64,000 nucleotides of DNA, from positions 433,992-497,991 of the forward strand of contig JBBCGK010000001.1 in NCBI GenBank assembly GCA_037200965.1, given 5' to 3'. The translations under genes and the position numbers were made by a program. Below, piece by piece: positions 41,428-59,149 of this stretch. This DNA comes from a bacterium (GTDB taxonomy: Bacteria > Patescibacteriota > Minisyncoccia > Phycocordibacterales > Phycocordibacteraceae). The number at the start of each line of letters is the position of its first letter. The first letter of the stretch is position 1. The notes beneath the pieces are model-generated. The model was not told the DNA's origin. It saw only the letters and a list, made by a program, of their open reading frames with translations, and made no database searches.

Positions 41428-41494
41428 GGCGACATACTTTTTCGAGAATTGTCGCGCCTTATGCCGCGTGAATGTCAGGCAGATGCTGTTCTGC

Positions 41495-43864: not shown

Positions 43865-43956
43865 CTCGTGTATAGTCCATACGACCGATCTTCCTGACAC
43901 CAATAGGCATCGGCCAAATCGTGATTGCTGACCAACGTTTTGCGCCGAGCGACCGC

Positions 43957-44262: not shown

Positions 44263-44357
44263 AAATGCGGCTCGATGCTAGTTTAGTGGCTGGCGCAGGG
44301 CCAGAGGAATAATCTTCGCAAGCGTGCGTCAGGCCACGCCCTACGGTAACGCGTCGA

Positions 44358-45341: not shown

Positions 45342-45453
45342 TATTCGTGCCCAGGATGCGAGGACTCGCCCTAGCCGAAGAACGGATGATGCCCGGATGA
45401 TTTCACCCGTCCAAGAGGAATGTGCGCCTTAGACTTCGTATCGGGCCGGGCCT

Positions 45454-46359
45454 ATGCTGCTTCTATTGGTGGGGTGTTTCTCAGGGGGTATTGGCATGAC
45501 TAGCGGCACGCGAGTTTTTCCGACGCGTTCGTATCGGGCATCATTTCCCATTCATGCGCTTCTTGCCGTCTTCGCGCTTCTCGTCGCGGGTGCGTATGGC
45601 CCGGCCGGTTCGGCCTTGGCCGCGACCAGCGCGGCGTCCTTCTGCCTTGACGCATGCCCCGAGGGCGCGCCGGCAAAGAACAAGACGGTCGTGCACCATG
45701 TCTATGCGCTCAGCTCGAACCCCGACACGAAATTCGCCGATTGGGTCGCGTACAAGATCTCCAAAGCGACCATCGGGTCGAACTGTTCGCGCAAGTGGGC
45801 GAAGGACCCGGACCTAGCGGCCGGCACCACGCTCAAGCCCGCCGATTACAAGGACATCAGTGCGGCGCTCCAGTCCGACCGGGGCCATCAAGCGCCCTTG
45901 GCAAGCCTATGCGGCTCGAAGTTCAATGCCGAGGCGAACTATCTCTCGAACATCACCCCACAAAAGTCCGACCTCAATCAGGGCGCATGGGTGCGGCTCG
46001 AAACCGCCGAACGCAAGCTCATTACGGGCGGCACCGCGAAGACCGTGTATACCGTCACCGGGACGCTCTACGAAAAGAAGATGCCGCCGCTTCCCAAGGC
46101 GAGCGTCAAGCACAAAGTCCCTTCGGGCTATTGGAAGATCGTCGCCGTCGAGACGGACGACGGGATCGACGCCGTGGCGTTCGTCATGCCGCAGGATACA
46201 CCCAAAGCCGCCGATTATTGCGAAACGCGCACCACCATCGGCGACGTTGAGACGCGCTCGGGCCTCAAGTTCTTCCTCGATCTCAACGAGACCGACCGCA
46301 CGCAGCTTGAGGAGAGCGAGGCGAAGACCGGCCTCTATGAGGATTTGGGCTGCGAGTAG
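45454..46359 (+). CDS. Secreted DNA/RNA non-specific endonuclease (NucA/Serratia nuclease family)
   Basis: Signal/TM segment, the catalytic SDRGHQAPLASL (DRGH motif) and downstream NITPQKSDLNQGAW. Confidence 0.8.
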   Translation: MLLLLVGCFSGGIGMTSGTRVFPTRSYRASFPIHALLAVFALLVAGAYGPAGSALAATSAASFCLDACPEGAPAKNKTVVHHVYALSSNPDTKFADWVAYKISKATIGSNCSRKWAKDPDLAAGTTLKPADYKDISAALQSDRGHQAPLASLCGSKFNAEANYLSNITPQKSDLNQGAWVRLETAERKLITGGTAKTVYTVTGTLYEKKMPPLPKASVKHKVPSGYWKIVAVETDDGIDAVAFVMPQDTPKAADYCETRTTIGDVETRSGLKFFLDLNETDRTQLEESEAKTGLYEDLGCE

Positions 46360-46381
46360 CACGAGCGCGGGAAGATACGGC

Positions 46382-46669
46382 ATGCGCAAGGCATTCATAC
46401 TGACGCTGGTGGCGTTCTCCGCACTTGCGGCAACCCCACTCATCGCGCGGACCACGGATGCGGAAGTCCGGGGACAAATGATCCGCGAGTCCATCGCAAG
46501 CTATCCCGGCAACTGCCCGTGTCCGTACAGCACGATGCGAAACGGGCGCTCCTGCGGCGGGCGAAGCGCGTACAGTCGGCCCGGCGGATATGCTCCGCTG
46601 TGCTACCCGTCTGACGTTTCGGACGATATGGTGCGCGGCTATCGAAGCACGCATGGGCTCGGGAACTGA
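46382..46669 (+). CDS. Small secreted Cys-rich protein
   Basis: MRKAFILTLVAFSALAATPLIA signal followed by a Cys-rich mature region. It uses an internal start within the longer, implausible track ORF 45860-46669. Confidence 0.5.
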   Translation: MRKAFILTLVAFSALAATPLIARTTDAEVRGQMIRESIASYPGNCPCPYSTMRNGRSCGGRSAYSRPGGYAPLCYPSDVSDDMVRGYRSTHGLGN

Positions 46670-46865
46670 TCGATCCGATTGATATCTGGCGAAGCGCGCA
46701 AACGCTCATCTCGCTCTATGGCGATGAGGCGGAACAGTTCGCGCTTCGCCGCGCCGCTACCCTGCTCGGCGAAGGAGACCGGGAGGGCCATGCGGCAATG
46801 GCAAGCGTTGCGGAAGCGGTGAAGAAGCTGCGGCAGGAGCGGCCCGAAAGCGGCGATGCCGTCCA

Positions 46866-47339
46866 CTAGTCGGCGTCCGGCAGCTTATCGGAAGCCTCGG
46901 CAAACTCCCGCACCAGCGCGACGATGTGCTTGCGCCGGGCGGGCGACTTGACCTGCGCGAACGCTCTCGCAAGCGCCCGCCCGTCGGCGCTCGAAAGCAG
47001 CGGCATTTCTTCCGCGAACAGTGCCGAACGGGCTTTGTCGTATGCCTCGGAAACGAAGTATTCCCAGGGCAGATCAAGCACCACCATCATCCGCAACAGC
47101 GCTTCAAGCGGCAGCCGGTTGGTTCCCTTTTCATACTTCTGCATCTGTTGGAAACTAACGCCGAGGCGCTTTCCGAGAGCGAGTTGCGACAGGCCGCGCA
47201 GCGTCCGTGCGGCAAATATCTTTTGGCCGATAATCTTATTGATCTCTGACGAACTGTGCTTGCGCGGGGCCATTCTCAATCCCGTTATACTATCGATCTC
47301 GCAAATTCTATGGCGCGAAAACCCCATTGTCGCGCGCAA
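46866..47339 (-). CDS. XRE-family helix-turn-helix transcriptional regulator
   Basis: IGQKIFAARTLRGLSQLALGKRLGVSFQQMQKYEKGTNR is a canonical XRE HTH. The likely start is at MAPRKH (47273). Confidence 0.75.
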   Translation of the reverse strand: MRATMGFSRHRICEIDSITGLRMAPRKHSSSEINKIIGQKIFAARTLRGLSQLALGKRLGVSFQQMQKYEKGTNRLPLEALLRMMVVLDLPWEYFVSEAYDKARSALFAEEMPLLSSADGRALARAFAQVKSPARRKHIVALVREFAEASDKLPDAD

Positions 47340-47349
47340 TCTCAGCCTG

Positions 47350-48393
47350 TTACGCCTCCTTCATCCACTCCCGGTGCATGCGCTCCCATTCCGGGCGCGG
47401 CGCTTCGAACTCTTCCCGGAACCACGGCATATGCTCTGGCACGAAGACCGTCTCGCGCAGGAACGCGAGCGTCGATTTGACGGCGGGTTTTGCGGCATGC
47501 ACGCGGTTATATGAGATGTAGAGCTTGCCGGGAAGGCGAAACGCAAGCGGAAGGGCGACGAGGTCCGGGTCGCCAAGCGCGTGGTAGGTAGGTGCGAGCG
47601 CGATGCCCGCGCCAAAATGCAGGCACCGCTCGAAGAAGCTCGTCTGGTTGGTGAGGATCGACACGTTCTTGACGACGTTTCCGCCCGACCATGCGGCCCA
47701 GGATGCCGTGCGCGTCTGATACTGGGCGAGATCGAGCAACCGGTGCTCGCTAAGCGCTTCGCTCGTCTGCGGCGTCCCGTGTTTTTGCAGATAGGACTTC
47801 GACGCGAACAGGGCGTAATGGACGGTCGCGAGCGGCCTCGACACCTGATCCGAATTTCCCGGATCGTAGAAGTGGATGCGGATGTCGAAGCTGTCGCTTC
47901 GGGGCGCGGTGATGTCCTGATCGGGCGATACCTTGAGCTCAATGTTCGGATGCCGTTCGAGGAAGCTCGGCATGAACTGCGCCAGCCAGAGGCTCGCAAC
48001 CCCGTCCGCGACCAGGATGCGGCAGTCGCCTTGAACGCTGCCTCCGCTGTCCTTCGCGTCCCTGCGAAGGAGCGCAATGCATTTGCGCGCCTCAAACGCG
48101 TTCGGAAGCAGACGTTCGCCGAGGTCGGTGAGCGCGCAGCCGTCGGTGCCGCGTATGAATACGCGCCCGCCGATCCACTGTTCGAAGCTGCGCAGCCGCT
48201 TGCTCACGGTTGCCTGCGTTGATCCGAGCATCGCCGCGGCCCGCTTGATGCTGCCGCCCTCGGCGATTGCGAGAAAATAGCGGAGATCGTTCCACTGCTC
48301 GGGCGAGGGGTCATCACTATTGGAAAGTACCATCTTCCGTCCCTTGGCTTCCGGGCGGCGATAATCGAATGGCAATTTAAGCTCCGGCAACAA
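47350..48393 (-). CDS. LysR-family transcriptional regulator
   Basis: LRYFLAIAEGGSIKRAAAMLGSTQATVSKRLRSFEQWIG HTH plus a LysR substrate-binding domain. It is divergent from the GNAT gene. An alternative start is at 48333. Confidence 0.85.
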   Translation of the reverse strand: MLPELKLPFDYRRPEAKGRKMVLSNSDDPSPEQWNDLRYFLAIAEGGSIKRAAAMLGSTQATVSKRLRSFEQWIGGRVFIRGTDGCALTDLGERLLPNAFEARKCIALLRRDAKDSGGSVQGDCRILVADGVASLWLAQFMPSFLERHPNIELKVSPDQDITAPRSDSFDIRIHFYDPGNSDQVSRPLATVHYALFASKSYLQKHGTPQTSEALSEHRLLDLAQYQTRTASWAAWSGGNVVKNVSILTNQTSFFERCLHFGAGIALAPTYHALGDPDLVALPLAFRLPGKLYISYNRVHAAKPAVKSTLAFLRETVFVPEHMPWFREEFEAPRPEWERMHREWMKEA

Positions 48394-48434
48394 AAAAATG
48401 CATAAGGCGCCAGGCGGCGCCGTGGAGTAATTCC

Positions 48435-49601
48435 TTGGAAAAGAACGATTTTAGCGCGATACGAAGCGGTACCTACGGGCCCGAACATGCCGCAGCGCAT
48501 CCCGATGGGGGAAGCGTATGGCTGCGTCCGGCCGGGGTCGGGGATATTCCGTTTGTGCATAGCCTGACCGTCTCGGACATCTCCGCCGAAACGGCACCGG
48601 AGGAGGTTATTCGGGCTGTTCACGCCCGCAATCCCGATGCCCTGTGGCTTATCGAGCGCCAAAGAGGCGGGGAGCCACCGGCCCCTATCGGCTATTTCGG
48701 CTTCCTGCCGCTCACCGATCCCGGTCTCGACGCGCTCAAGGAAGGCGCGCTCGACCGCAAGAGCCCGCCGCTTGAGCTTGTGGCCGAGGGCGGCACGCGT
48801 CCGGCGGCGGTGTACGTGTGGGGCGTCGTGGCGCATCGCCTAGTGCGGGTCACCGCGCCGCTCCTCACCCTCGCGCTTTCGCCTTACATCGACGTTCCCT
48901 TCTACACCGTCTCCCAGACCGAAGAGGGGCTGCGCTCGGCCCGTAGGCGCGGCTTCGTGCCGGTCGATGCGCGGATCGGCGACCGGGGCGGGCTCGTGCT
49001 GCTGCCGCTTGGCAGCCTTCTTGCGCCGCCGCCAAGCAAAGTCGCGCAGCTCGACGTGATCGTGGCCTCGAACGCCGAGCACCTCATGATGTGCGCCTAT
49101 GTTCGCGGCGTGGTGTTCGGCGCGGAGCAGCTCGCCCCCTACCGCGAGGAATTCGACGGCAACGACTTCTGCGGCATCCAGCTTCTGGGGTTCGTGAACA
49201 ACGAGCCTGCGGCAGTGCTTCGCATCCGTCACTTCGCGTCATTCGCGAAATTCGAGCGGTATGCCGTGCTCGAGCGCTTCCGCAAAACGCGGATCAAGTA
49301 CGAAATCCTGGAGTTCGGAATCGAGCTGTGCCGCCGCAAGGGATACACGAAGCTCTACGCGCACTCGCAGGTGCGCCTCGTCCGCTTCTATGAGCGGTTC
49401 GGCTTTCGTCTGTGCGCCGCGCAGCGTCCGCTCGTCTTCGCGGATCACGAATACGTCGAGATCGAAGCCGACCTCGCGCCGCATCCCGAGGCGATCACGA
49501 CCGCCACCGATCCCTACGTGATCATCCGACCCGAAGGGGCGTGGGACAGGCGCGGCGTTCTTGACCAGTCAGCGGCACGGCCCGCGACTAATCCCGTCTA
49601 G
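48435..49601 (+). CDS. GNAT-family N-acetyltransferase (two-domain)
   Basis: C-terminal LERFRKTRIKYEILEFGIELCRRKGYTKLYAHSQVRLVRFYERFGF is the GNAT acetyl-CoA-binding core. Confidence 0.7.
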   Translation: MEKNDFSAIRSGTYGPEHAAAHPDGGSVWLRPAGVGDIPFVHSLTVSDISAETAPEEVIRAVHARNPDALWLIERQRGGEPPAPIGYFGFLPLTDPGLDALKEGALDRKSPPLELVAEGGTRPAAVYVWGVVAHRLVRVTAPLLTLALSPYIDVPFYTVSQTEEGLRSARRRGFVPVDARIGDRGGLVLLPLGSLLAPPPSKVAQLDVIVASNAEHLMMCAYVRGVVFGAEQLAPYREEFDGNDFCGIQLLGFVNNEPAAVLRIRHFASFAKFERYAVLERFRKTRIKYEILEFGIELCRRKGYTKLYAHSQVRLVRFYERFGFRLCAAQRPLVFADHEYVEIEADLAPHPEAITTATDPYVIIRPEGAWDRRGVLDQSAARPATNPV

Positions 49602-49603
49602 GA

Positions 49604-49840
49604 GTGCTCGACATGGCCGGAACGCTCGATTGCTTTGTCCGCCTTGTTGAACTCGACACCTGCGTGCGTGAGTTGGCACAGCGCAAGCGCGCGAATAATA
49701 GGATCAGCATATCCGATCTTGATGACGTTCTCCTGGCGCTTGCTGAAGCTCGGGAAACGATCCAGGACGACGCGTATGACGAGATGGCGAGGCGGCGAGC
49801 GATAACAACGGCGGACATAATGCAGTTCGCAAAAGATTAG
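49604..49840 (+). CDS. Hypothetical small protein
   Basis: 78-aa ORF starting 2 nt after the GNAT stop. No motif recognised. Confidence 0.35.
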   Translation: MLDMAGTLDCFVRLVELDTCVRELAQRKRANNRISISDLDDVLLALAEARETIQDDAYDEMARRRAITTADIMQFAKD

Positions 49841-50107
49841 CGAAAGCGCGCGGCTCTATTCAAAACGCGGCCTACGACAAGTTCGCAACTATTCGTCCGA
49901 CAACACTCGCCCGATAACGGATCATTCGGCAACCAGAGGATAATGAGTATATCGCGGGAGCGAAGCATAGGAGACGATGCAGTGCATAGTCCGTCATAAA
50001 TTCAACGGCGGCATCCTGATGGTAGCTGTATAACAGCGTGGTGCCGGAACTTCCCCTTGTAGCCAATACCGGGCTTCGTTACAAAGCTTCAAGGGGAGGC
50101 TATATGC

Positions 50108-51743
50108 ATGCTTAATCACACCTTTGGAGTGATCTCGCTGGGTCGTTTCCTCACTGCTATACGTCCTGCGCGTTATGCGGTCCGCTCTGCCAATCGAACA
50201 CGCTTCGGCCAAGGGCTGGTCTCGGTCCGCACCCTAGTCGTCGCTGCGTGCGTTGCAATGAGTTGGCTAGCCGCATTGCCGCAAGCCGCCATCGCGAGCA
50301 GCGTCTTGATGAGCGTGCCAGGCGAAAGCGACGTAAACTCGGCGGGTGCCTTCACATATTCACTTCCTATTGCAGTTCCGCCCGGGACTGCCCGCATCGT
50401 ACCGCGACTGTCGCTTGATTATTCCAGTCAAAGCGGCAATGGCCTCCAAGGCCTCGGCTGGTCGCTTTCCGGATTGCCGGCAATAGGAAGATGCGCGCGC
50501 ACGGTGGCGCAAGACGGCGTGCATGGCAGTGTCAATTACGACGGCAGCGACAAATTCTGCTTGGAAGGCCAGCGCCTAGTCGCCCTAAGCGGCGTCTATG
50601 GCGCGAACAATACGGAATATCGTACCGAAATAGAGAGTTTCACCAAAATTATTTCATACGGAACGGCGGGTAACGGGCCAGCCTCGTTCAAAGCGTGGAC
50701 CAAGTCCGGTCAAATCCTGGAATTCGGAAACACGGCGGATTCCCGTATCGAAGCGGTCGGCAAGACAACGGTGCGCGCGTGGGCCGTCAATAAGGTTTCC
50801 GATGCCAAAGGAAACTACGTCACGGTCGAATACACCGACGACCAAACTAACGGAGAGGCGTATCCGGTTCGGATTGATTATACCGGCAATCCCAACGCAA
50901 CGCCGGTGGTTATGCCGTACAATTCCGTGCAGTTCACATACACAACGCGCGCAGATATCACGATTGCCTATCAGGCCGGTTCGCAGCAGAAGATCACAAA
51001 ACTTCTCACCAATATTAAGACTTATCAAGCCGCGAATTTGGTTTCCGACTATCGCCTTGCCTATCAAGCCGGCTCATCGCTCGCACATTCGCGTCTAACG
51101 TCCATCACGTTATGTGATGGGTCGGGTACGCCGGTATGCCTTGCCCCCACGACCTTTGGCTGGCAGGGTGGCAGCGGTAGCCTGCCGACAATGACCGGGA
51201 CCGCATCCACTATCATTCCGACGCAAAGCGGTGATTTCAACGTTGACGGATTAACAGACCCCTTTGTCAAAGCCCCGTATTTTGGAACTCAGAGCGGAAC
51301 GTTCGTCGCGAGCGGCATGACTATAAGCTATACCGACCCCATATCGGGATTGCCGTGGTCGGGTCTAACGGCTTTCCCCAACACAATGGTCGGGTTTGTA
51401 TTGGGTGATACCGACGGAGACGGGTATAGCGACGTCACCGCGATGCGGGGTATCGCACATGGCGCTTATGCCAGGTTGGTGGTTACGCGCAACGACCAGC
51501 TCGGAAATCTTGGTCAGATCGGCCTGATCGATCCGCTGCATGCTGGCGCCATATTCAGCGGCGACTTCAATGGAGACGCGCGCACGGACGTTTTCGTGAC
51601 GGGTGTAGCTTCTTATAACAGTACGACGTATCTGAGCCTGGGGACCGGATCGTTCACCGCCATCAACATGAGTTCGGTATATGAACCCATCACGACCGCC
51701 GATTTTGATGGTGACGGATGCACCGATTTCTTGGGATCGACTA
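50108..51743 (+). pseudogene. SpvB/TcdB-type toxin-complex protein, N-terminal part with FG-GAP/VCBS repeats (3'-truncated at R3)
   Basis: AGAFTYSLPIAVPPGTARIVPRLSLDYSSQSGNGLQGLGWSLSGLPAIGRC is the SpvB N-terminal signature. Later GDFNVDGLTD, GDTDGDGYSD, GDFNGDARTD and ADFDGDGCTDF are FG-GAP/VCBS repeats. The protein sense ends at the repeat, and the track ORF beyond 51743 is read-through into unrelated DNA. Confidence 0.75.
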
Positions 51744-51779
51744 GTTGCACAACCTCCTTTTTACGAACGATCCTGCAGG
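51744..51779 (+). repeat. Array repeat R3
   Basis: Exact 36-mer. Confidence 0.98.
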
Positions 51780-51793
51780 TTTCCGTTAATCTT

Positions 51794-53134
51794 CTAAGTC
51801 TCTTGTTGAGACGCAACACAGCCCCACGCCGCTTTTACCGAGTCATAGATAAAGCCTACCGTCAGAACCTTGGATATAACCGTCGTGGTTGGCAACGCCG
51901 TGCCTTCTGCCACGAACGACGCCCCCCAGGTAATCGCCCGGGCCGTACCGTCGTCTTTGATCCTGAAGATGAGCGTCTGGAAGTTCGTGGGTGTACCGGA
52001 GAGATTTGTCGTCATCGACGTGATCGCGGTCGCAAGAGCAGTAATCGTCACGGCGTCGCACCCATCGCTATTCACTGTAGGGGTTGCCGAAGAAACAATC
52101 GTCGTTATGCGTGGAGTATTTCTCTTATTTGCAAGAGTCTGTGTACCATTGTTAGTCACGACACTGTCAGCGTTTGTGCCTGCAACCGAGATTCTCAAAT
52201 CTCCTGTTCCAACGGTAAGCACTCCTGAGGTGTGCGTTGCAACCCAGTTACCGTTACTAATGTTCCAGGTAAAACCAGTAGCACTAAAGAGATCGGCCCA
52301 TCCAAGCGCGGTCGTCCCAAGAGCGGCAATATCATTCGTGACCGGGGAAAGAGCGGAGGAGGTAAGTTGTATCGTTCCTGTTCCGTTGATAGCCAGACCA
52401 AGCGTATTGGTTGTAGGAAGGTAGAGGCGATTACCGGTAGCAGTTGAAGAGGTAGGAGCAAAGCCAGCCGCAGTTGCCAGCGATGCCAACGTCAAAGCTC
52501 CGGCGTCGGTCAAGGTTGCATTGGTGGATGTTGCTTGTGCGCCGCGCGAAGTACCATCGGACCGAAGTATAGATTCATCTGTGGCAAAAGTGGCGGCAGC
52601 GGTGACTACATTACTCGGTATATCGCTTGTAAGAGCGACGGTACCCGTGGACGCCGGAAGGGTAATGGTGTTAGTTCCAGCGATTGCCGTAGGGACGAGG
52701 GCGATGGTACCGGAAGTTGAACCCGAGAAGGTTACACCCTGGGTACCGGAAATGATGCCAGTGGTGTCAGCAATAAGCACTGCCGAGTTCTGGATCAGCT
52801 TACCAGTGGTAGTGTCGAAGCGGGCCACGGCGTTATCAGTTGCTGAAGCCGGGCCTACAACATAGGTAGCAAGGGAAGCAGTCGTAGGAATAACATAGCC
52901 GCTTTGGAGCGCTATAGCGATCGTTCCGGAAGTAGTGATCGGTACGCCGGATACCGTAAGTCCTGTCGGTACCGTAGCGTCAACGGATGTAACCGTACCT
53001 CCTCCTCCGGGGAGGTCTATAAGAAGCCTGTGCGTCGTCGGGTCTGCATATAGACGCACAGGCGTCTTGCCGTCAGCGCTTGAAGCTGCTATCAGCGTTG
53101 GAACATCGTTCTGGTCTCGGTAAGCATCAGCCAT
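51794..53134 (-). CDS. Phage tail-fibre-like protein
   Basis: 446 aa, Thr/Gly/Ala/Ser-rich beta-repeat sequence with AVARFDTTTGKLIQNSAVLIAD and similar segments typical of phage fibres. Its stop is 14 nt from R3. Confidence 0.6.
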   Translation of the reverse strand: MADAYRDQNDVPTLIAASSADGKTPVRLYADPTTHRLLIDLPGGGGTVTSVDATVPTGLTVSGVPITTSGTIAIALQSGYVIPTTASLATYVVGPASATDNAVARFDTTTGKLIQNSAVLIADTTGIISGTQGVTFSGSTSGTIALVPTAIAGTNTITLPASTGTVALTSDIPSNVVTAAATFATDESILRSDGTSRGAQATSTNATLTDAGALTLASLATAAGFAPTSSTATGNRLYLPTTNTLGLAINGTGTIQLTSSALSPVTNDIAALGTTALGWADLFSATGFTWNISNGNWVATHTSGVLTVGTGDLRISVAGTNADSVVTNNGTQTLANKRNTPRITTIVSSATPTVNSDGCDAVTITALATAITSMTTNLSGTPTNFQTLIFRIKDDGTARAITWGASFVAEGTALPTTTVISKVLTVGFIYDSVKAAWGCVASQQET

Positions 53135-53136
53135 AA

Positions 53137-53327
53137 TCAGGTACTTTGTACGAGTAATTCCCCGGCACTATTGGCGTAGAGCACCACAGGCGTCTTGCCG
53201 TCAGCGCTTGAGACAGCCATGAGTGCAGGAACAAAGTTTGCGTCCCGCAGATCGTCTACCGGCCCAAAGTCCGACCCGGTAGTGTCGTCGTCCGCCATAA
53301 GCGCATGTGTTGAAGGGTCAGCAACGA
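53137..53327 (-). pseudogene. 3' fragment of a second tail-fibre-related gene (5'-truncated at R4)
   Basis: ...ADPSTHALMADDD...LMAVSSADGKTPVVLYANSAGELLV parallels the N-terminus of the downstream fibre protein (LIAASSADGKTPVRLYADPTTHRLL). The frame is open into R4, and the apparent GTG start lies inside the repeat. Confidence 0.55.
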
Positions 53328-53363
53328 GTTGCACAACCTCCTTTTTACGAACGATCCTGCAGG
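53328..53363 (+). repeat. Array repeat R4
   Basis: Exact 36-mer. Confidence 0.98.
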
Positions 53364-53460
53364 AGTATGAGTACTGATACCGTCCAATCTGCCATTGAAT
53401 ATGCGCGACACTCGCCGTCGTGACGACGTTGAGTTAAGTCAATGGCGATTTATGTTACTG

Positions 53461-53982
53461 TCACCGGACCGGCACGAACCCTTCGGGAAGAAACTGCGTC
53501 GGGTCCTTCCACGGTTCAATAGCAACTGCTTTGGGGTATTTGCTTATCATGTAAGCATCGGTGCAATACACCAAACTTTCGGGATCATCGTCCGAAGGCT
53601 CAAGGCCTGAAAATTCAACCATCACAGATTTCTGGTTGGTAATTTTTCCAAAGGTGTCAATGAACCGCTTGATTTTGTCAAACTCACGCACAAAATCGTC
53701 GGGCTCAAATAGATAGGAATACACTACTACTGTATTCTCGCCGACGATCCGTTCGGAACCGTCCTCATTTTTCACGCGGAAACGCCCAGCGGCGAGCGGC
53801 AATTGGGTTACACCGCCATTGATCCGCACCATAATTTCCATGGCGCTATCGACCCATTTGTCAAAATTTTCAACAGGCTTCTGATCGCGATCTTGGTTAG
53901 GCAAATAAACTGCAAACCGTTGTACCGATTCAGATGTATCGGCACCTAGCGCGGTCTTGAGGTCAAAATCTACGAGCGCCAT
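53461..53982 (-). CDS. Hypothetical protein
   Basis: 173-aa ORF with normal composition. No motif recognised. Confidence 0.5.
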   Translation of the reverse strand: MALVDFDLKTALGADTSESVQRFAVYLPNQDRDQKPVENFDKWVDSAMEIMVRINGGVTQLPLAAGRFRVKNEDGSERIVGENTVVVYSYLFEPDDFVREFDKIKRFIDTFGKITNQKSVMVEFSGLEPSDDDPESLVYCTDAYMISKYPKAVAIEPWKDPTQFLPEGFVPVR

Positions 53983-54068
53983 GATCGCTTCCTATTAGCC
54001 ATCAATGAAAAGGCCCCATAGCCGGGGCCTTAAAGTAGGCAAAATGCCAAATTGCAACGCTGATGCCG

Positions 54069-54738
54069 CTACCGCGGTCTTGAAGGTCTCCGAATTCCGA
54101 GCACCGTTTTAGGGTCCCGCTTGATCTTTAGAAACCGTCCAAATCCCGAACGAGCGTCTTCAGGTTTCTCCGCTTGTTGGGAAGCTGAACGAATCGCTGT
54201 CACTATCTCGTTAGCAGCTTCTGATATGGGCGGCAAATTTTGCCGGTTATAGTCGCCTGGCGGGATTCCCGCGTGCTTCTTTTTCATATGATTTTCTCCT
54301 GTTTCTTCACAGGGTTGCGACCCATCGGTCTCAGCCCCGTGTTGATCGGGAGAAAGCCCTTCAAGAATCGGGCCGCGTACGTCGGTTTCCCAGGTTAAGG
54401 CTTCGACGCGAATATCCTGGCCACGGTCCGTCCTTATGCTTTCGCGATGGGGACCATACCCACATAGTACCACAGCGGCATGCGTAGTCGCGCCCGAAAT
54501 CTCGTGGACTATATCCGCAGCAGCGCCAATACCAGCGCCCGTTACTATCAAGTCATAGACCATCAAGATGCGATCACCGGAAAGCGGTTTGTCTGCCGTT
54601 ATTGCTACGCCCTTCGCCCAACGCGTCTCGCGATAGATGCAGGCGGGCAATCCGGTTTCGGCGACGAGGGACGAGAGCATCGAAATCGCGCCGACCGGCC
54701 CCATCTCTTTTTCGATAAAGCACAATCGCGTAATGCCG
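54069..54738 (-). pseudogene. Phosphoribosyltransferase-domain protein (probably 5'-truncated at R5)
   Basis: GDRILMVYDLIVTGAGIGAAA is the PRPP-binding loop of type I PRTases. The frame is open back into R5, with only a TTG start at 54725. The usual 40 or so N-terminal residues of the PRT fold appear to be missing. Confidence 0.55.
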
Positions 54739-54774
54739 GTTGCACAACCTCCTTTTTACGAACGATCCTGCAGG
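54739..54774 (+). repeat. Array repeat R5
   Basis: Exact 36-mer. Confidence 0.98.
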
Positions 54775-55372
54775 AAACCATGAGAGAACCCGAGTTGATC
54801 TCGGTGGCCACGATCTTCAAAGGCGACAACTCGTTAAATTCCTCATAGTTCAGGTCAGCGAACCGAATTCGATCAGGCACTCCATCGTGATCACGACCAT
54901 TTGCGGCATATAATTCCCGCATACGTTCTCGAAGAACTGTGTTGATGAATTCACGAATGGGCGTTGTGGTGAAAAAGCCTAAGTGCCGCCATATGCGCAG
55001 CATTCCAAACGTAACTAGGGGAGCTGTTAAAAAAGACAATAATACACCCCCCAACGCCGTAGCGGACAATGCCCATCGAAGTCCCTGGCGGAGGCGAACA
55101 AATCTACGCCAATCATCAGCCCCCAATAACGTTACGGGGGTCAAGTTATGTAGGCTGAGAATATTTTGATCCCTAATGTCGGGATTCATCAAAGTCGAAG
55201 CACTGTATCCCGCCGCGACTAGCGTTGCCACGATCGCGCCAGCTGACGCCCCGGCTACACCTACGAAGGCGAGCCCATTCTTCGCGGCACCCTCCAAAGC
55301 ACCAATATGCGCTATGCCCTTAGCACCGCCACCTTCGAATATGCCAAAGGCTGGCCTCTTAGCGTCCATCAC
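54775..55372 (-). pseudogene. Patatin-like phospholipase, N-terminal part (3'-truncated at R5)
   Basis: FEGGGAKGIAHIGAL (oxyanion GGGxxG) and GASAGAIVA (GxSxG nucleophile). The catalytic Asp (DGG/DGA) region is absent because the sequence runs into R5. The track ORF 54605-55372 continues as unrelated read-through. Confidence 0.75.
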
Positions 55373-55505
55373 TGTATGTATCCTTTCGCAAATCAGGTCG
55401 GGGCCTGCACAAACGACAGAACATCGGACAGGCTGGTGAAATAATGAGATACCAGCCTTCGCACATTGCTGTTCCGCATACAGATACAGCAGTTGCTAGT
55501 TCAAA

Positions 55506-57077
55506 TCAGTTCAGTTGCTCCCGCACCAACGAAAGATCGTTGAACAACGTTCTCGTAAGATTCGGGATTTTTTCCAGTTTGTCTGCTTGTATTAACTTCG
55601 CCATAAAACGAATGCTTCCCTCCACTCGCTCGTCATAGAATATTTCGTGCAGAAACTTCCGCCCCTGCCGCAAATCCGTAGCATCAAACAGAAATTCCAG
55701 CTTGGCTTCGTTATCGACCATAGCAACTGCACGCCAAAAGAATCGAGGAAAATTCGCTGTCAGGAGGCTCTTGCGGACTATCTTGCTTAGGGAGGAGCGC
55801 GAAACAATCTCGCGTTTCAGATCGCTTGGGCCATTCAAAAATATGTCCCACTCGAAACGAGCCATATCACTATTGCTCGATAATTTTTTAAGCATCTCTA
55901 AAATATGATCAAATGCCAGGATAGCATCGTACACGTCGTCAAATCGGACGCGAATTTTGCTATAGAGCGGCACGAGACACAAATCCGCGCGAGCACGGGT
56001 TATCTTCGTCCCACGCTTTCGAGACCAAGTTGTCGTTATGATGTTAGATGGGCCGCTCAGCTTGATCTCAGAGTATGGGCCGATGCCGTCGTCATGCGCA
56101 TACAGTTTGGTTATGCGCGTCGCCCGTAGAAGAAAACCCGTGCGAGGTTCGGGTACTATGGGACCAGTTGTGGGCCCAAGGCCGCTGAGTGCGACCGCGT
56201 GAAATGCTCGTTTGCTTTTCTTGGAGCGTTCTAAGTTGAAGTCAAAACTCAGAATGATCGGAATATTGCCCCTCAAGAATGCATTTGCTGCGGCTTGGAT
56301 ATTGGCTCGCTCGGGCGTCATAAACAAATCCGCTTCGAGACCGACATTGCGCAAAACGCCAGCCATTTGATCGATATCCAAGCCGTCGTTCGGGAGAGCT
56401 AGGCCAGCTGTTGGCAGCGAAGCAAACGCTCGTTTGGTTATTTCAATAGGTGATAAGATTGGATTGTCATACAAATTCGCCGTGCCATGCAGTGTAGTCC
56501 ACAGAGCGCTGGTAGCGCATGCGCCAACCTCTCGGTCTTGTTCTTGAAAAGGCAGCGCACGTACAGGCAGATCTATGCCGAAAAGATTTGGTACATATCC
56601 GCGCTCAGTGAGGAAGCGACTCGATGGATTACTCCCAACCGGCGCCAAACACGTTCGCCCAATGATGGTTTCGGGAAGAGGTTTGACAACTACAAAGCCG
56701 TGATATCCCAAGACGTCGAACCTACACTCACCGCGGCCCGAAACGAAAAGCGCTTCGACCATATCTTTATCGAACGGTTGCCGAAAAAAGTGAATTCGTG
56801 AACATTCTTTCGGATAGTTCGCGTGGCATCTCGCGTAGTATCCTGTATGATCTTCGGCGAAATGCTTGTCGATGTAGTCGCGCTCAAATACAAGAGTTTC
56901 GATTTTCGCGGCTTCACAGTAACGAGCTAGAAAAATGACCTGGGGCTTTTGTGCAATTTGCTCCAGTCTAGGTTTAAATGCTCCGGCAACAAAAAGCGCT
57001 ACCAAGTTCTCTCGATTGTACTTGAGTACTTGGTAGCGCTCGCCCATGTGATCTAACTGAATATCCGCGTACGTCAC
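55506..57077 (-). CDS. Hypothetical protein with a putative papain-like cysteine peptidase core
   Basis: 523 aa. QEQDREVGACATSALWTTL (Gln...Cys), RAFHAVALSGL (His) and YAHDDGIG (Asp) occur in the order expected for a papain-fold / C39-like peptidase. The assignment is by motif pattern only. Confidence 0.5.
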   Translation of the reverse strand: MTYADIQLDHMGERYQVLKYNRENLVALFVAGAFKPRLEQIAQKPQVIFLARYCEAAKIETLVFERDYIDKHFAEDHTGYYARCHANYPKECSRIHFFRQPFDKDMVEALFVSGRGECRFDVLGYHGFVVVKPLPETIIGRTCLAPVGSNPSSRFLTERGYVPNLFGIDLPVRALPFQEQDREVGACATSALWTTLHGTANLYDNPILSPIEITKRAFASLPTAGLALPNDGLDIDQMAGVLRNVGLEADLFMTPERANIQAAANAFLRGNIPIILSFDFNLERSKKSKRAFHAVALSGLGPTTGPIVPEPRTGFLLRATRITKLYAHDDGIGPYSEIKLSGPSNIITTTWSRKRGTKITRARADLCLVPLYSKIRVRFDDVYDAILAFDHILEMLKKLSSNSDMARFEWDIFLNGPSDLKREIVSRSSLSKIVRKSLLTANFPRFFWRAVAMVDNEAKLEFLFDATDLRQGRKFLHEIFYDERVEGSIRFMAKLIQADKLEKIPNLTRTLFNDLSLVREQLN

Positions 57078-57538
57078 ACTGTGAACGGGATACGCCGACG
57101 GTCAGGAGAAATCTGGTTGGCTTGTTCTCGACTTTCAATTGCCTTGAGCATTGGCGAAAGACGCTTAGCGACTTGCGCAGTAAGATCAGTTCTGGAGGCC
57201 GTCGCCTTGGACTTGGGCCGTGCAGAACTCTTCGTCTTTTTGTGACGCATAGCGCAACCTCCAATTTCGGTGAGCAGGATGTTGCCCTCAGTTCCAGCCC
57301 GGCGGGTATAAACTCCAACACGGGGATCAAAATCAAGCTCATGGACTTGACTTCCTGGAACGGGGCCGCCTAGGGCTCCCCTGTAACGAATCAGCCCTGT
57401 TCTTAACGTACCACGAGCGCCTTCGTATCCCCAATATTTTGTATGTGGATAATCCACCAACACAAGTTCTTTGAATGGTGAGGCTGGCCGTTGCCTTTCC
57501 TCAGTGGCGTCGCCGTCCGTTGACCCAATCGCCTGCAT
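57074..57538 (-). CDS. Hypothetical protein (first gene of the S5 operon)
   Basis: 154-aa ORF overlapping the next gene's start by 4 nt. It has a basic C-terminal half and no recognised motif. Confidence 0.45.
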   Translation of the reverse strand: MQAIGSTDGDATEERQRPASPFKELVLVDYPHTKYWGYEGARGTLRTGLIRYRGALGGPVPGSQVHELDFDPRVGVYTRRAGTEGNILLTEIGGCAMRHKKTKSSARPKSKATASRTDLTAQVAKRLSPMLKAIESREQANQISPDRRRIPFTV

Positions 57539-57677
57539 AACAATTTAATGCCTTCCTTCTGGCAGCAGACCACTAGGAGCGGCAGACGGCCGTTCATTAT
57601 CAGCGTGGATCATTGGCTGGACCGAGCCCCAATCGGTGACTGATTCGTACGGCTAAAGACCGCTCGGGTCAACTAAG

Positions 57678-57713
57678 GTTGCACAACCTCCTTTTTACGA
57701 ACGATCCTGCAGG
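57678..57713 (+). repeat. Array repeat R6 (cas-proximal)
   Basis: Exact 36-mer, 32 bp from the cas2 stop codon (57746). Confidence 0.98.
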
Positions 57714-57745
57714 AGTCCGTGTATATTGAGCGGTAACGCGAATTA

Positions 57746-58042
57746 CTAGACAATCTCAAAGGACTTGATCTTATAATACTCCCCGATAACGGCATCGGCA
57801 GTTGAATTAAGTGCGCATGATTTGCAGGAAGAAAATAGATGCAGCCGATCCCGTTTTCCCGTGAATAGCGATCGCATCTTCATTTCAAATTCCCGGCGCT
57901 CCTTAAAGGAAAGGCGTCCGACGTAGAGAGTCTGTTGAAGTGCGGATAAACCATAGTCCTTTGATAACTTTTCCGCGCGGATCTGGCGCTGCCGATTGGC
58001 GGTTCTCCAGGCGACTATTGCAAGGAAGCATGGATCATTCAT
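57746..58042 (-). CDS. cas2: Cas2-like protein (atypical)
   Basis: 98 aa, overlapping the cas1 stop by 4 nt. The pattern FLAIVAW-R..RQRQIRAEKLSKDYGL-SALQQTLYVGRL-SFKERREFEMKM...DRLHLF follows the Cas2 ferredoxin fold (beta-alpha-beta-beta-alpha-beta). The usual Y-D at the end of strand 1 reads W-R here. Confidence 0.6.
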   Translation of the reverse strand: MNDPCFLAIVAWRTANRQRQIRAEKLSKDYGLSALQQTLYVGRLSFKERREFEMKMRSLFTGKRDRLHLFSSCKSCALNSTADAVIGEYYKIKSFEIV

Positions 58043-59094
58043 GGTGCCGCATATTCAAACGGCACATATAAGGGCGCTTTTTCAAGAAATACCCGGCTTA
58101 AGAGCTCGCTCTGTTCCGTAATGGTATTGCGGAGCGTACGGCGTTTCCCGTGATGGAGGACTTTCGACTCGAGGCGCTTAAGCACCGCCTCAACCACCTT
58201 GCTCTTTCCTTGCGCAGAAAGCCGATATTCGATCTTGCTTACCTGCTCGAAATCGCCGCGCTTGCCAAGTTCCTGAGAAATGAAGAGCGGCATGACTGCA
58301 GCGTCGACGACGGGGACCCGAAACTCTTCGACCAGATCGAGGACGAGCGCGGGCTTGCCGTAACGCTCGGAATGATAAAGTCCGAGATACGGGTCGAGAC
58401 CGATATAAAGGCACGCCCGCTCGACTTCGTTATAGAGGATGCCGTATCCGTAATTAAGAGCGCTGTTGAACTTGTCCCTGCCTTGCGGTATCCGGCCCGG
58501 GAACTTAAAAAGCGATTTCATGCCTTGCCAATAGCGCTCTGCAATGGATCCTTCAAGGCCAAGCAGTTCCTCGTTCACCCGGTTGCTCGGAAGCAGCTTC
58601 GCTATCGACTCAAAAACCGCCTCCGCCTGCATCCGCTCCTTCGCATTCTCCGCACCGTATCGGTCGGCAAGATGGCGCATAAAGCGGATTTGGTTGCGGC
58701 ACTTACCGACAACGAAGGTACGCGCAAGTTCGAAGGATTTAGCCGGATCGGAGGAAGTCGTAAGCTGTGCGCGGCGCAATGTCGCGAGCCCCTTCGGGTC
58801 GCTTGAGAAAATGCGCCCGACGGGTTTCCCAAATGCGCCGAGATAGACGATATCGACTTCGTGCTCGAGCGCGAGTTGCACCGCATGCATGGAAATGGAG
58901 GACGGACGGAGTATGACGATCTTAGCAAGCCGCCGGACCGGATACTCCTTCTTAACCCGGAGAAGCTTTACCGCAGTTCCCCGCTTGCGACGCCTGCCAC
59001 CCCCAAGCGGCTTTCGCGGAACCGGGAGACTGACCGTAATACGCTCGCCCGTCGCGCCGATGAAGCTGCCATAGGTATCTATCAGCAAATCCAT
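58039..59094 (-). CDS. cas1: CRISPR-associated integrase Cas1
   Basis: 351 aa. N-terminal beta domain (LLIDTYGSFIG...), LGLEGSIAERYW (catalytic Glu), NSALNYGYGILY, and GLYHSERYGKPALVLDLVEEFR (catalytic His and Asp/Glu) all match Cas1 motifs. Confidence 0.88.
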   Translation of the reverse strand: MDLLIDTYGSFIGATGERITVSLPVPRKPLGGGRRRKRGTAVKLLRVKKEYPVRRLAKIVILRPSSISMHAVQLALEHEVDIVYLGAFGKPVGRIFSSDPKGLATLRRAQLTTSSDPAKSFELARTFVVGKCRNQIRFMRHLADRYGAENAKERMQAEAVFESIAKLLPSNRVNEELLGLEGSIAERYWQGMKSLFKFPGRIPQGRDKFNSALNYGYGILYNEVERACLYIGLDPYLGLYHSERYGKPALVLDLVEEFRVPVVDAAVMPLFISQELGKRGDFEQVSKIEYRLSAQGKSKVVEAVLKRLESKVLHHGKRRTLRNTITEQSELLSRVFLEKAPLYVPFEYAAP

Positions 59095-59149
59095 GGGGCG
59101 TATATACTACCGCCTTGACCTAGTGTCAAGGATCACGCAACGCCCTCGC

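What the first reader, a model, noticed from the sequence alone, without database searches (positions are those of the whole stretch)
57714..59149. Stand-alone adaptation module: no effector, almost no leader, atypical Cas2
cas1 and cas2 (4-nt overlap) are flanked by metG on one side and the array on the other. No Cas9, Cas12, Cascade or Cas10 gene lies in the window. Only 32 bp separate the cas2 stop from R6, and only 16-34 bp separate R1 from the tatD start, so there is no room for a conventional AT-rich leader at either end. The Cas2-like protein has W-R where the conserved Y-D of strand beta1 normally sits. Cas1 carries a very basic N-terminal insertion (PRKPLGGGRRRKRGTAVK). These deviations might relate to relaxed substrate-length selection, but that is speculation.
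Basis: partly seen in the sequence, partly recalled or inferred. Interest (0 to 1): 0.7.

Follow-up and report, generated by a model that had tools for sequence, protein, structure and literature searches.

The report
Cas1-Cas2 module building kilobase-spacer arrays
This effector-less cas1-cas2 pair belongs to a large, apparently undescribed clade in ultra-small (CPR/Patescibacteria) bacteria whose CRISPR-type repeats are separated by captured foreign DNA of 0.14 to 11 kb rather than about 35 bp, which suggests a CRISPR integrase that has lost its length ruler.

Summary
cas1 (58039-59094, -) and a divergent cas2 (57746-58042, -) overlap by 4 nt and lie between metG and tatD. A 32-bp leader separates cas2 from the first of six identical 36-nt repeats. 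No Cas effector was detected in the 64-kb window.

The repeats are separated by 1.4-10.9 kb of foreign DNA: phage PurZ/MazG-like genes, a tail-fibre-like gene and a fragment of a conjugative element. Genes are cut off at the repeat borders.

About 60 related loci, mostly from Patescibacteria, share this layout: cas1, a ~100-aa cas2, a short leader ending in GGCT, then a 37-nt repeat (CCTGCA…AAAGGA..TTGTGCAAC). Each has either a single repeat or spacers of 140 bp to about 12 kb, never about 35 bp. These Cas1 proteins form one clade. Their nearest outgroups (28-35% identity) sit beside normal arrays with a homologous repeat.

In natural populations, identical cas2-leader-repeat sequences are followed by different DNA starting exactly at the repeat end. 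This indicates ongoing insertion next to the leader.

Cas2 has the Cas2 fold but lacks the β1 Asp and has a conserved CxxC. The basic Cas1 insertion occurs only in some subclades.

How the array is read out is unknown. I found no description of this system in the searched literature.

The parts
58039..59094 (-). cas1, 351 aa. The catalytic residues E181, H241 and D253/E256 are conserved. A basic loop insert occupies residues 27-44.
   Evidence: Pfam Cas_Cas1 1e-63 and TIGR00287 1e-65. PADLOC Cas1b 4e-68 over the full length. Invariant columns in alignment A1. AF2 model pLDDT 83, with best PDB match A. fulgidus Cas1 4n06 at 2e-20.
57746..58042 (-). Divergent cas2, 98 aa. It has W-R in place of Y-D at beta1, a conserved CxxC (C73, C76) and a C-terminal FEIV motif.
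   Evidence: Pfam CRISPR_Cas2 E=0.0034, below the curated cut-off. PADLOC Cas2b 9e-7. A family profile searched against PDB returns Cas2 proteins as the best hits: 3exc at 3e-4, then 7f84 and 4qr0. AF2 model pLDDT 81 with beta-alpha-beta-beta-alpha-beta topology. The top 17 Foldseek PDB hits are all Cas2.
57714..57745 (-). 32-bp leader between the cas2 stop and the first repeat
   Evidence: Read directly from the sequence. In the clade the last four leader bases are GGCT in 33 of 53 distinct loci and GCT in 41 of 53. The window has GACT.
57678..57713 (-). Repeat 1, next to the leader. In cas orientation it reads CCTGCAGGATCGTTCGTAAAAAGGAGGTTGTGCAAC.
54775..57677 (-). Insert 1, 2903 bp. It holds ORFs of 154 aa and 523 aa and a patatin gene cut off at about residue 199 by the next repeat.
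   Evidence: The patatin match covers only profile positions 2-118 of 191, and the reading frame runs into the repeat.
54739..54774 (-). Repeat 2
53364..54738 (-). Insert 2, 1375 bp. It holds ORFs of 218 aa and 173 aa with no family match.
53328..53363 (-). Repeat 3
51780..53327 (-). Insert 3, 1548 bp. It holds a 446-aa phage tail-fibre-like protein and a 65-aa ORF.
   Evidence: phrog_3030 1e-22. 379 relatives in IMG/VR viral contigs, the best 60% identical.
51744..51779 (-). Repeat 4
40811..51743 (.). Insert 4, 10933 bp. It is a fragment resembling a proteobacterial conjugative element or chromosome. It begins with a C-terminal recombinase fragment, then a TrwB/TraD-like ATPase, ATP-grasp, S1/P1 nuclease, Endonuclease_NS, XRE, LysR and GNAT genes, and ends with an SpvB/FG-GAP toxin gene cut off by the repeat.
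   Evidence: Pfam. phrog_95 match to positions 459-549 of 651. 49% identity to a Sulfitobacter plasmid T4SS coupling protein. The SpvB ORF reads through the repeat.
40775..40810 (-). Repeat 5
38595..40774 (+). Insert 5, 2180 bp. It holds a MazG-like pyrophosphohydrolase, a PurZ-like adenylosuccinate synthetase and a 250-aa ORF, and appears to be phage-derived.
   Evidence: PRA-PH 1e-6 and Adenylsucc_synt 7e-59. phrog_1211 6e-72. 33-36% identity to PurZ/PurA-like genes in 219 phage records.
38559..38594 (-). Repeat 6, the last one, 16 bp from the tatD start

Best explanation
cas1-cas2 here is the integrase of a CRISPR-derived, effector-less system that builds arrays with long inserts. This system is conserved across a large Cas1 clade, mostly in Patescibacteria (CPR).

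Proposed mechanism. Cas1-Cas2 recognises the short leader (..GGCT) and the adjoining 36/37-nt repeat immediately downstream of cas2. It attacks both repeat borders and joins the 3' ends of a foreign double-stranded DNA fragment. Repair of the gaps duplicates the repeat, as in ordinary CRISPR adaptation. The difference is that no length ruler or trimming step is applied, so fragments of 0.14 to about 12 kb are inserted whole. These fragments come from phages, conjugative elements and other bacteria.

Shown by comparative evidence:
- the conserved locus architecture;
- homology of the repeat to canonical CRISPR repeats;
- intact Cas1 catalytic residues;
- identical repeats within each array;
- unique foreign inserts whose borders cut genes;
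- insertion polymorphism at the leader-proximal repeat in natural populations.

Inferred: the chemistry of integration, the absence of a ruler, and the purpose of the array.

My preferred reading of the purpose, held with low confidence, is a heritable memory of foreign DNA. It would be read out by read-through transcription from the cas operon as long RNAs. These would either act through long complementarity or be processed by a factor encoded elsewhere, rather than through a classical locally encoded crRNA-effector complex.
For: - Cas1 is a genuine Cas1 with invariant E181, H241 and D253/E256. Cas2 has the Cas2 fold.
- The six repeats are identical, with 0 matches expected by chance. The array was reproduced in a second assembly.
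- About 60 related loci show the same order: cas1, cas2, a 2-39 bp leader, then a 37-nt repeat. Forty inserts of 140-10933 bp were counted, after setting aside two stretches that contain cas genes. None is shorter than 140 bp. Some of these loci come from long contigs, including a complete 876-kb chromosome.
- These Cas1 proteins form one clade. Outgroup Cas1 proteins (28-35% identity) lie next to normal arrays with a 72-77 bp period and a related 37-nt repeat.
- The repeat ends and the leader junction are conserved.
- All inserts are unique; they share no common element.
- 56% of 62 insert borders cut an open frame of >=100 codons. The figure is 70% for random genomic positions and 6% for shuffled sequence.
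- Window inserts carry phage and conjugative-element genes.
- Identical cas2-leader-repeat sequences are followed by three different sequences in nine contigs from different samples. The divergence starts exactly at the repeat end. A further case is L066/L067.
- No Cas effector was found in the window. None appeared among the 25 families listed (of 40 matched) for the 64 largest ORFs flanking clade loci.
- In several lineages the module sits next to ruvA, S20, a Mur ligase gene or polA. This suggests long vertical retention.
Against: - No integration event was observed directly. In the polymorphic populations the contigs end before the distal junction of the new insert, so repeat duplication is inferred and not seen.
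- Many loci have only one repeat, which may mean low activity.
- The complete genome (a 960-kb contig exists) could not be scanned, so an effector elsewhere is not excluded.
- No PAM-like or end motif was found at the insert borders.
- Gene orientation within inserts shows no bias relative to cas. Much of the insert content looks like ordinary bacterial genes and not obviously mobile elements. Both points weaken a pure immunity reading.
- Covariation support for a repeat hairpin is not significant.
Confidence: 0.7

Rival explanations
1. The array is an ordinary CRISPR memory served by an effector encoded elsewhere in the genome, for example a type III, type V or other crRNA-guided complex. Long pre-crRNA would be cut at the repeats, and only the first tens of nucleotides of each insert would be kept as the guide after 3' trimming.
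For: The repeat keeps the conserved 3' end (TTGTGCAAC) that corresponds to the 8-nt crRNA tag of its canonical relatives. The repeats can form a hairpin of -10 to -12.5 kcal/mol, z-score -2 to -3. Stand-alone adaptation modules that presumably work with effectors in trans are known (PMC5704561).
Against: No effector was found within the 64-kb window. None was seen among the large ORFs within about 10 kb of cas1 in the clade loci examined. No locus of the clade has short spacers. If only about 35 nt were used, retaining whole kilobase fragments in genomes under 1 Mb would be costly. Repeat covariation is not significant.
Confidence: 0.2
2. The system is a Cas1-driven platform for gene capture, functionally analogous to an integron. 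Its main benefit would be horizontal acquisition and expression of whole genes by genome-reduced, DNA-scavenging CPR bacteria, not immunity.
For: Inserts are gene-sized. Twelve of the 42 inter-repeat intervals are 1.2-1.6 kb. They carry long intact ORFs. The 10.9-kb insert appears about 86% coding by my own tally of the ORFs listed. The three leader-proximal inserts in the window are co-oriented with the cas operon. The repeat carries an AAAGGAGG Shine-Dalgarno-like motif 9 nt before the insert.
Against: Insert borders cut ORFs almost as often as random positions do: 56% against 70%. Seven inserts of 140-450 bp are too short to hold a gene. Orientation is opposite to cas for all four inserts in L001/L008. 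The AAGGA motif is also present in the canonical archaeal repeats. There is no attC-like cassette delimitation.
Confidence: 0.2
3. The locus is a decaying remnant of a canonical CRISPR-Cas system that lost its effectors. The long intervals would be secondary insertions or rearrangements, and cas1-cas2 would be inactive or drifting.
For: Loss of effector genes leaving stand-alone adaptation modules is documented (PMC5704561). Many clade loci have a single repeat.
Against: The Cas1 clade is broad and strongly conserved, with mean column identity 65% and invariant catalytic residues. Repeats within arrays are almost all identical. No short spacer survives in any locus. Leader-proximal polymorphism is seen in populations. 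Inserts share no mobile element.
Confidence: 0.05
4. cas1-cas2-leader-repeat is itself a casposon-like mobile element. The repeats would be its ends or scars, and the DNA between them native or passenger DNA.
For: One MAG carries at least four copies that are 100% identical over the 200 bp before the repeat. Three of them share a discrete ~1.5-kb unit at 99.7-99.9% identity, each in a different context. In L002 an 18-bp stretch, and in L084 a ~90-bp stretch, from upstream of cas1 is duplicated immediately after the single repeat. The casposase structure 6opm is among the top structural matches to Cas1.
Against: No terminal inverted repeats bound the window element. No family B polymerase was noticed. 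By sequence Cas1 groups with CRISPR Cas1 (Cas1b, TIGR00287). All repeats are in direct orientation, on one side of cas2 only, with the first at a fixed distance. Synteny in Paceibacteria argues for mostly vertical inheritance. This model does not explain why different foreign DNA follows an identical module at the same genomic site.
Confidence: 0.05

Closest known systems
Stand-alone CRISPR adaptation modules (cas1-cas2, with or without cas4, beside an array and without effector genes), as catalogued by Hudaiberdiev et al. 2017 (PMC5704561)
   Same: A Cas1 of the CRISPR type (best profiles Cas1b and TIGR00287), an adjacent Cas2, direct repeats of 36-37 nt starting just after cas2, polarised growth next to the leader, and no effector in the locus.
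   Different: Inserts are 0.14-12 kb and highly variable, not a fixed 30-40 bp. There is no cas4. The leader is only 2-39 bp. Cas2 lacks the beta1 Asp and has a conserved CxxC. The condition holds across a whole deep clade; it is not a sporadic loss of effectors.
Canonical 37-nt-repeat CRISPR arrays next to the nearest outgroup Cas1 proteins (Methanospirillum, Methanocalculus, a Bacteroidales MAG; loci L041-L048)
   Same: A homologous repeat (CTTGCA..AAAACAAGGAcTGCAAC against CCTGCA..AAAGGAnnTTGTGCAAC), the same 37-nt length and the same Cas1 fold.
   Different: Those arrays have a 72-77 bp period, meaning spacers of about 35-40 bp, with 4-69 repeats. Their Cas1 proteins are only 28-35% identical and fall outside the long-insert clade.
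Casposons (self-synthesising transposons integrated by a Cas1-family casposase)
   Same: A Cas1-family integrase that inserts kilobase-sized DNA with duplication of the target. In CRISPR integration, the repeat plays the role of the target-site duplication. Casposase 6opm is a strong structural match.
   Different: There is no PolB, and no terminal inverted repeats were found. A Cas2 partner is present. The integrated DNA is heterogeneous foreign DNA, not the element itself. The duplicated target is a fixed 36-37-nt repeat, not a 14-15 bp site.
Integrons (IntI tyrosine recombinase, attI, attC-bounded gene cassettes)
   Same: A dedicated integrase gene followed by a one-sided, polarised array of gene-sized inserts separated by a repeated site, with the newest insert next to the integrase.
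   Different: The enzyme family is unrelated. Repeats are identical rather than variable attC hairpins. Inserts are random fragments whose borders cut genes, not discrete promoterless cassettes.

Membership tests
CRISPR adaptation module (Cas1-Cas2 integrase with array) | Cas1 with the Cas1 fold and the catalytic Glu/His/Asp residues | tested here: met
   Pfam 1e-63 and TIGR00287 1e-65. E181, H241, D253 and E256 are invariant in 26 homologues. The AF2 model matches Cas1 structures in the PDB.
CRISPR adaptation module (Cas1-Cas2 integrase with array) | An adjacent Cas2 with the ferredoxin-like beta-alpha-beta-beta-alpha-beta fold | tested here: met
   Profile search against PDB gives a Cas2 as the best hit at E=3e-4. 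AF2 pLDDT 81 with the correct topology. The top 17 Foldseek hits are all Cas2. The Pfam score (18 bits) is below the curated cut-off of 23.8, so the sequence is divergent.
CRISPR adaptation module (Cas1-Cas2 integrase with array) | Conserved acidic residue (Asp) at the end of Cas2 strand beta1 | tested here: not met
   The window protein has W12-R13. Across the family this position varies among E, R, Q, H, D, N and F. From general knowledge, Cas2 nuclease activity is not needed for integration in E. coli.
CRISPR array | Several near-identical direct repeats of 23-50 nt in one orientation next to cas genes | tested here: met
   Six identical 36-nt repeats. The same holds in relatives.
CRISPR array | Short unique spacers of roughly uniform length (about 25-70 bp) | tested here: not met
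   The window spacers are 2903, 1375, 1548, 10933 and 2180 bp. The clade range is 140-10933 bp, plus one of about 12 kb. The inserts are unique, but they are neither short nor uniform.
CRISPR array | Polarised acquisition at the leader-proximal repeat | tested here: met
   This was shown in sister lineages, not in this genome. Identical cas2-leader-repeat sequences are followed by 3 different sequences, and by 2 in L066/L067.
Complete CRISPR-Cas system (types I-VI) | An effector module (Cascade/Cas3, Cas9, Cas10 complex, Cas12 or Cas13) in the locus | tested here: not met
   There are no such PADLOC hits among the 119 window ORFs. None was seen in the flanks of clade loci. The rest of the genome could not be tested.
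Casposon | Terminal inverted repeats, a family B DNA polymerase, and Cas1 of the casposase group | tested here: not met
   No inverted repeats bound the element. The best sequence profiles are CRISPR Cas1 families. I did not run a specific search for PolB; no such gene was seen among the ORFs annotated.
Integron | An IntI tyrosine recombinase and attC-bounded cassettes with borders in intergenic DNA | tested here: not met
   The enzyme next to the array is Cas1, not a tyrosine recombinase. 56% of insert borders cut a frame of >=100 codons.

The most novel reading that the evidence does not exclude
In this effector-free descendant of CRISPR, the kilobase inserts themselves are the functional product. 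One possibility is immunity through long antisense RNA or double-stranded RNA, which needs long complementarity precisely because no guide-binding effector exists. The other is that the array acts as a 'Cas1 integron' supplying new genes to genome-reduced CPR bacteria. In either case Cas1-Cas2 would be a natural integrase without a length ruler that places large DNA at a defined 37-bp site.
Probability: 0.35. Interest if true: 0.95.

Novelty: new variant of a known kind. Interest (0 to 1): 0.85.

Why it matters
- From general knowledge, CPR/Patescibacteria are regarded as nearly devoid of CRISPR-Cas. Standard CRISPR finders cap spacer length, so they would miss these arrays. A widespread Cas1-Cas2 system in this group would therefore have gone unseen.
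- A natural Cas1-Cas2 that inserts fragments from 0.14 kb to more than 10 kb at a defined leader-repeat site would overturn the view that the CRISPR integrase is bound to a molecular ruler. It would also be a candidate tool for site-specific insertion of large DNA or for molecular recording.
- The system sits functionally between casposon integration and CRISPR adaptation, so the step from transposon to immunity (or its reversal) becomes testable.
- It offers a concrete mechanism by which DNA from phages, plasmids and possibly host bacteria enters CPR genomes.

Tried and rejected
- The exact window repeat was searched in the GTDB representative genomes and in JGI metagenome contigs. Neither gave a match, so I could not find other arrays or an effector locus carrying this repeat.
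- Nucleotide searches of the 10.9-kb insert against plasmids, and of the PurZ-containing insert against phages, found nothing. Exact-protein look-ups of insert proteins found only the same organism or nothing. Searches of viral contigs with the PurZ-like and 523-aa proteins gave nothing. No donor sequence (protospacer) was recovered, so no PAM could be derived.
- No conserved base was found at insert starts or ends.
- A conserved repeat hairpin was tested. It folds better than shuffled sequence, but covariation is not significant: 37-38 of 500 shuffles reach the observed values, and RNAalifold predicts no consensus structure.
- Promoter and terminator scans around cas2 and the first inserts gave no more sites than expected from shuffles.
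- Assembly artefact was rejected. The array is reproduced in a second assembly, and the same architecture occurs on long contigs, including a complete chromosome.
- A shared mobile element inside the inserts was rejected. An all-against-all blastn and tblastx comparison found no shared sequence.
- Self-derived inserts were not supported. The window inserts have no match to the rest of the window.
- Six literature searches returned results, and three papers were consulted. None describes kilobase spacers associated with Cas1-Cas2.
Full report
**Observation**

On the minus strand, cas1 (58039-59094, 351 aa) overlaps a 98-aa ORF (57746-58042) by 4 nt. Cas1 is unambiguous: Pfam Cas_Cas1 1e-63, TIGR00287 1e-65, and PADLOC Cas1b 4e-68 over its full length. 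The gene upstream is metG (tRNA-synt_1g 3e-91).

Thirty-two bp after the cas2 stop begins the first of six perfectly identical 36-nt repeats. In cas orientation the repeat reads CCTGCAGGATCGTTCGTAAAAAGGAGGTTGTGCAAC. No shuffle of the window gave a single match. The sixth repeat lies 16 bp from the ATG of tatD (TatD_DNase 7e-63).

The organism is a CPR/Patescibacteria bacterium. Its 16S and 23S rRNA genes are interrupted by insertions, including a group I intron, and are not linked. The close Cas1 homologues come from Paceibacterota, Parcubacteria and Kaiserbacteria MAGs.

PADLOC models were run on all 119 window ORFs of >=140 aa. The only Cas hits were to Cas1. A second assembly of the same organism (GCA_015655515.1) is 99.975% identical over 16.3 kb and runs through four repeats. 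The array is therefore not an assembly accident.

**What lies between the repeats**

The five intervals are 2903, 1375, 1548, 10933 and 2180 bp, listed from the leader outward.

| Insert | Length | Content |
|---|---|---|
| 1 | 2903 bp | ORFs of 154 aa and 523 aa, and a patatin gene whose frame runs straight into the next repeat at about residue 199. Only profile positions 2-118 of 191 are matched. |
| 2 | 1375 bp | Two ORFs with no family match |
| 3 | 1548 bp | A 446-aa protein matching phrog_3030 (1e-22), with 379 relatives in IMG/VR viral contigs |
| 4 | 10933 bp | See below |
| 5 | 2180 bp | A MazG-like pyrophosphohydrolase next to a PurZ-like adenylosuccinate synthetase (phrog_1211 6e-72; 33-36% identity to genes in 219 phage records) |

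Insert 4 starts inside a recombinase gene, as shown by a phrog_95 match to positions 459-549 of 651. It then carries a TrwB/TraD-like coupling ATPase that is 49% identical to one on a Sulfitobacter plasmid. ATP-grasp, S1/P1 nuclease, Endonuclease_NS, XRE, LysR and GNAT genes follow. It ends inside an SpvB/FG-GAP toxin gene whose frame reads through the repeat.

The pairing of genes in insert 5 is, from general knowledge, the signature of phages with 2-aminoadenine genomes.

None of the inserts matches the rest of the window. The inserts are therefore pieces of foreign DNA. At least three come from mobile elements, and their ends fall inside genes.

**The architecture defines a whole clade**

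Loci were collected around Cas1 homologues from three sources: contigs that encode specific homologues, GTDB representative genomes, and JGI metagenome contigs. This gave about 60 distinct loci with Cas1 proteins 40-88% identical to the window protein.

All share one layout. cas1 is followed by an overlapping or abutting cas2-like gene of about 100 aa, then 2-39 bp of leader, then a 37-nt repeat. Across 52 distinct repeats the consensus is C(C/T)TGCA-N8-TCGCA(C/A)AAAGGA-NN-TTGTGC(A/G)AC. The last leader bases are GGCT in 33 of 53 loci and GCT in 41 of 53.

Downstream there is either a single repeat, with up to 9.6 kb of sequence and no second copy, or further copies at long and irregular distances. 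After setting aside two stretches that contain cas genes, forty inserts range from 140 to 10933 bp. One more of about 12 kb links loci L032 and L034. None is shorter than 140 bp, and twelve lie between 1.2 and 1.6 kb.

Within arrays the repeats are identical, apart from single or double mismatches in a few copies. Several of these loci lie on long contigs, including a complete 876-kb chromosome with eight repeats (OY969557.1).

A neighbour-joining tree of 77 Cas1 sequences puts every long-insert or single-repeat locus in one clade. The outgroup Cas1 proteins are 28-35% identical and come from Methanospirillum, Methanocalculus, a Bacteroidales MAG and others. Where repeats were detected beside them, they form ordinary arrays with a 72-77 bp period. 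Their 37-nt repeat (CTTGCAnAAGGGTTCCACAAAAAACAAGGACTGCAAC) is visibly related. The system therefore descends from a canonical CRISPR adaptation module and its repeat.

**Evidence for activity and polarity**

One Cas1 variant (P0005) and its near relatives occur on nine contigs from different samples. In all nine, the 200 bp before the repeat and the repeat itself are 100% identical. The sequence after the repeat then falls into three unrelated classes that diverge exactly after ...TTGTGCAAC:
- the native flank (L002, L003, L007, L103, L105);
- a different sequence of more than 1.1 kb (L004, L005, L006);
- a third sequence (L100).

L066 and L067 show the same pattern. This is the population signature of leader-proximal acquisition known from ordinary CRISPR arrays.

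All inserts are unique, with no shared mobile element. Fifty-six percent of 62 insert borders cut an open frame of at least 100 codons. The figure is 70% for random positions in the flanking genomes and 6% for shuffled sequence. The fragments are therefore taken almost at random with respect to genes, not as delimited cassettes.

In one MAG a 'spacer' consists of the 3' two-thirds of cas1 plus cas2 plus the leader, and it ends exactly at the leader-repeat junction (L034). I interpret this as capture of a fragment produced by breakage at the integration nick. This is an inference.

**The proteins**

*Cas2.* The family alignment shows a nearly invariant Trp followed by a variable residue where canonical Cas2 has Tyr-Asp. 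The window protein has W-R there. G42, E48 and a CxxC motif (C73, C76) are invariant, and the C terminus carries a conserved F/Y-E-I/L-V motif.

A profile of the family finds solved Cas2 structures as its best PDB hits: 3exc at 3e-4, then 7f84, 4qr0 and 7mi4. The AF2 model has pLDDT 81 and the beta-alpha-beta-beta-alpha-beta topology, followed by two helices. Its 17 best Foldseek matches are all Cas2. The protein is therefore a divergent but genuine Cas2.

*Cas1.* The model (pLDDT 83) matches A. fulgidus Cas1, the casposase and the Synechocystis and type I-C Cas1 structures. The basic insert forms a low-confidence loop. It is present in only some subclades, so it cannot explain a trait shared by the whole clade.

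**No partner genes**

Upstream neighbours differ between lineages: metG, ruvB, and ruvA/S20/Mur ligase. The recurrence of ruvA, S20, Mur ligase and polA suggests vertical inheritance.

The 64 largest ORFs flanking clade loci gave no Cas family among the 25 families listed, of 40 matched. The eight largest ORFs are housekeeping or surface proteins.

**Mechanism**

The best-supported model is classical CRISPR integration chemistry without length control. Cas1-Cas2 is anchored by the short leader and the inverted end motifs of the repeat (TGCACA ... TGTGCA). It joins the 3' ends of any available double-stranded fragment to the two repeat borders, and gap repair duplicates the repeat.

What the array is for is not shown. 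I consider four possibilities:
- a memory read out as long RNA, by read-through from the cas operon, since no terminator-like site was found between cas2 and the first repeat;
- service by an effector encoded elsewhere in the genome;
- opportunistic gene acquisition;
- no downstream function at all.

The strong conservation of the module in genomes under 1 Mb argues that it has some benefit.

**Comparison with known systems, and novelty**

Stand-alone adaptation modules are known (PMC5704561). They are described there as arising through deletion of the effector genes, and nothing in the passages I read mentions unusual spacer lengths.

A 2022 review of derived CRISPR systems lists nothing comparable in the passages I searched. 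Six literature searches found no description of kilobase spacers linked to Cas1-Cas2.

I classify this as a new variant of a known kind. It is a CRISPR-derived adaptation module that fails the array criterion of short, uniform spacers. In function it resembles both a casposase and an integron integrase.

**Limits**

- No donor sequence, PAM or distal junction of a new insert was recovered.
- The whole genome could not be scanned.
- The repeat hairpin is not supported by covariation.
- The Cas1 tree is a quick distance tree.

Noticed in passing
window 1-2093 and 14762-20235: The rRNA genes are interrupted and unlinked. The 23S gene spans 4345 bp against a 2925-nt model and contains a group I intron at 16313-16529. 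The 16S gene is split (1-837 and 1571-2093) around a 247-aa homing-endonuclease ORF (740-1483). The 5S gene is at 14762-14869. This is typical of CPR bacteria.
   Followed up: partly
window 38604-39940: The oldest insert carries a MazG-like pyrophosphohydrolase directly followed by a 343-aa PurZ-like adenylosuccinate synthetase (phrog_1211 6e-72). From general knowledge this pair is the hallmark of phages that replace adenine with 2-aminoadenine. It hints that such phages occur in this organism's environment.
   Followed up: partly
L002 9969-9986 and 11419-11436; L084 5597-5688 and 7269-7360: In two single-repeat loci, the sequence immediately after the repeat duplicates sequence from just upstream of cas1. 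In L002 the duplication is 18 bp. In L084 it is about 90 bp with 4 mismatches and corresponds to the 3' end of the upstream gene. This looks like a target duplication or attachment-site copy left when the cas1-cas2-leader-repeat unit was inserted.
   Followed up: partly
L023, L026, L031, L032, L034 (MAGs MFD05512.bin.1.167 and MFD09286.bin.2.44): One MAG carries at least four copies that are identical over the 200 bp before the repeat. Three of them share a ~1.5-kb unit at 99.7-99.9% identity, in different contexts. The unit runs from about 110 nt upstream of cas1 to the end of the repeat. Its left edge coincides with a genome-wide palindromic element, TGTCCACGACGGGGACCCGTCGTGGACA. One copy is a 5'-truncated cas1 with cas2 and leader, lying between two repeats. 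These genomes appear larger than CPR genomes (contigs up to 1.6 Mb in the related FCPU426 MAGs, one locus with glutamate synthase). The clade may therefore extend beyond CPR.
   Followed up: partly
clade-wide: Insert lengths have a mode at 1.2-1.6 kb (12 of 42 intervals), with a tail down to 140 bp and up to about 12 kb. The cause is unknown. It might reflect the size of the DNA fragments available in the cell.
   Followed up: no
window 53046-53119 and 53174-53247: A 74-nt stretch is repeated 128 bp apart at 74% identity. The 446-aa tail-fibre-like protein and the adjacent 65-aa ORF therefore share an N-terminal motif (..SSADGKTPV.LYA..). This suggests a duplicated or alternative tail-fibre N terminus in the captured phage fragment.
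   Followed up: no
window 57749-58042 and family alignment A2: The Cas2-like family has an invariant CxxC immediately after strand beta4, and most members have a third Cys in helix alpha1 (W-C-K-D-Y-G-L). This could be a metal site or a disulphide. The window protein has Ser at the third position.
   Followed up: no
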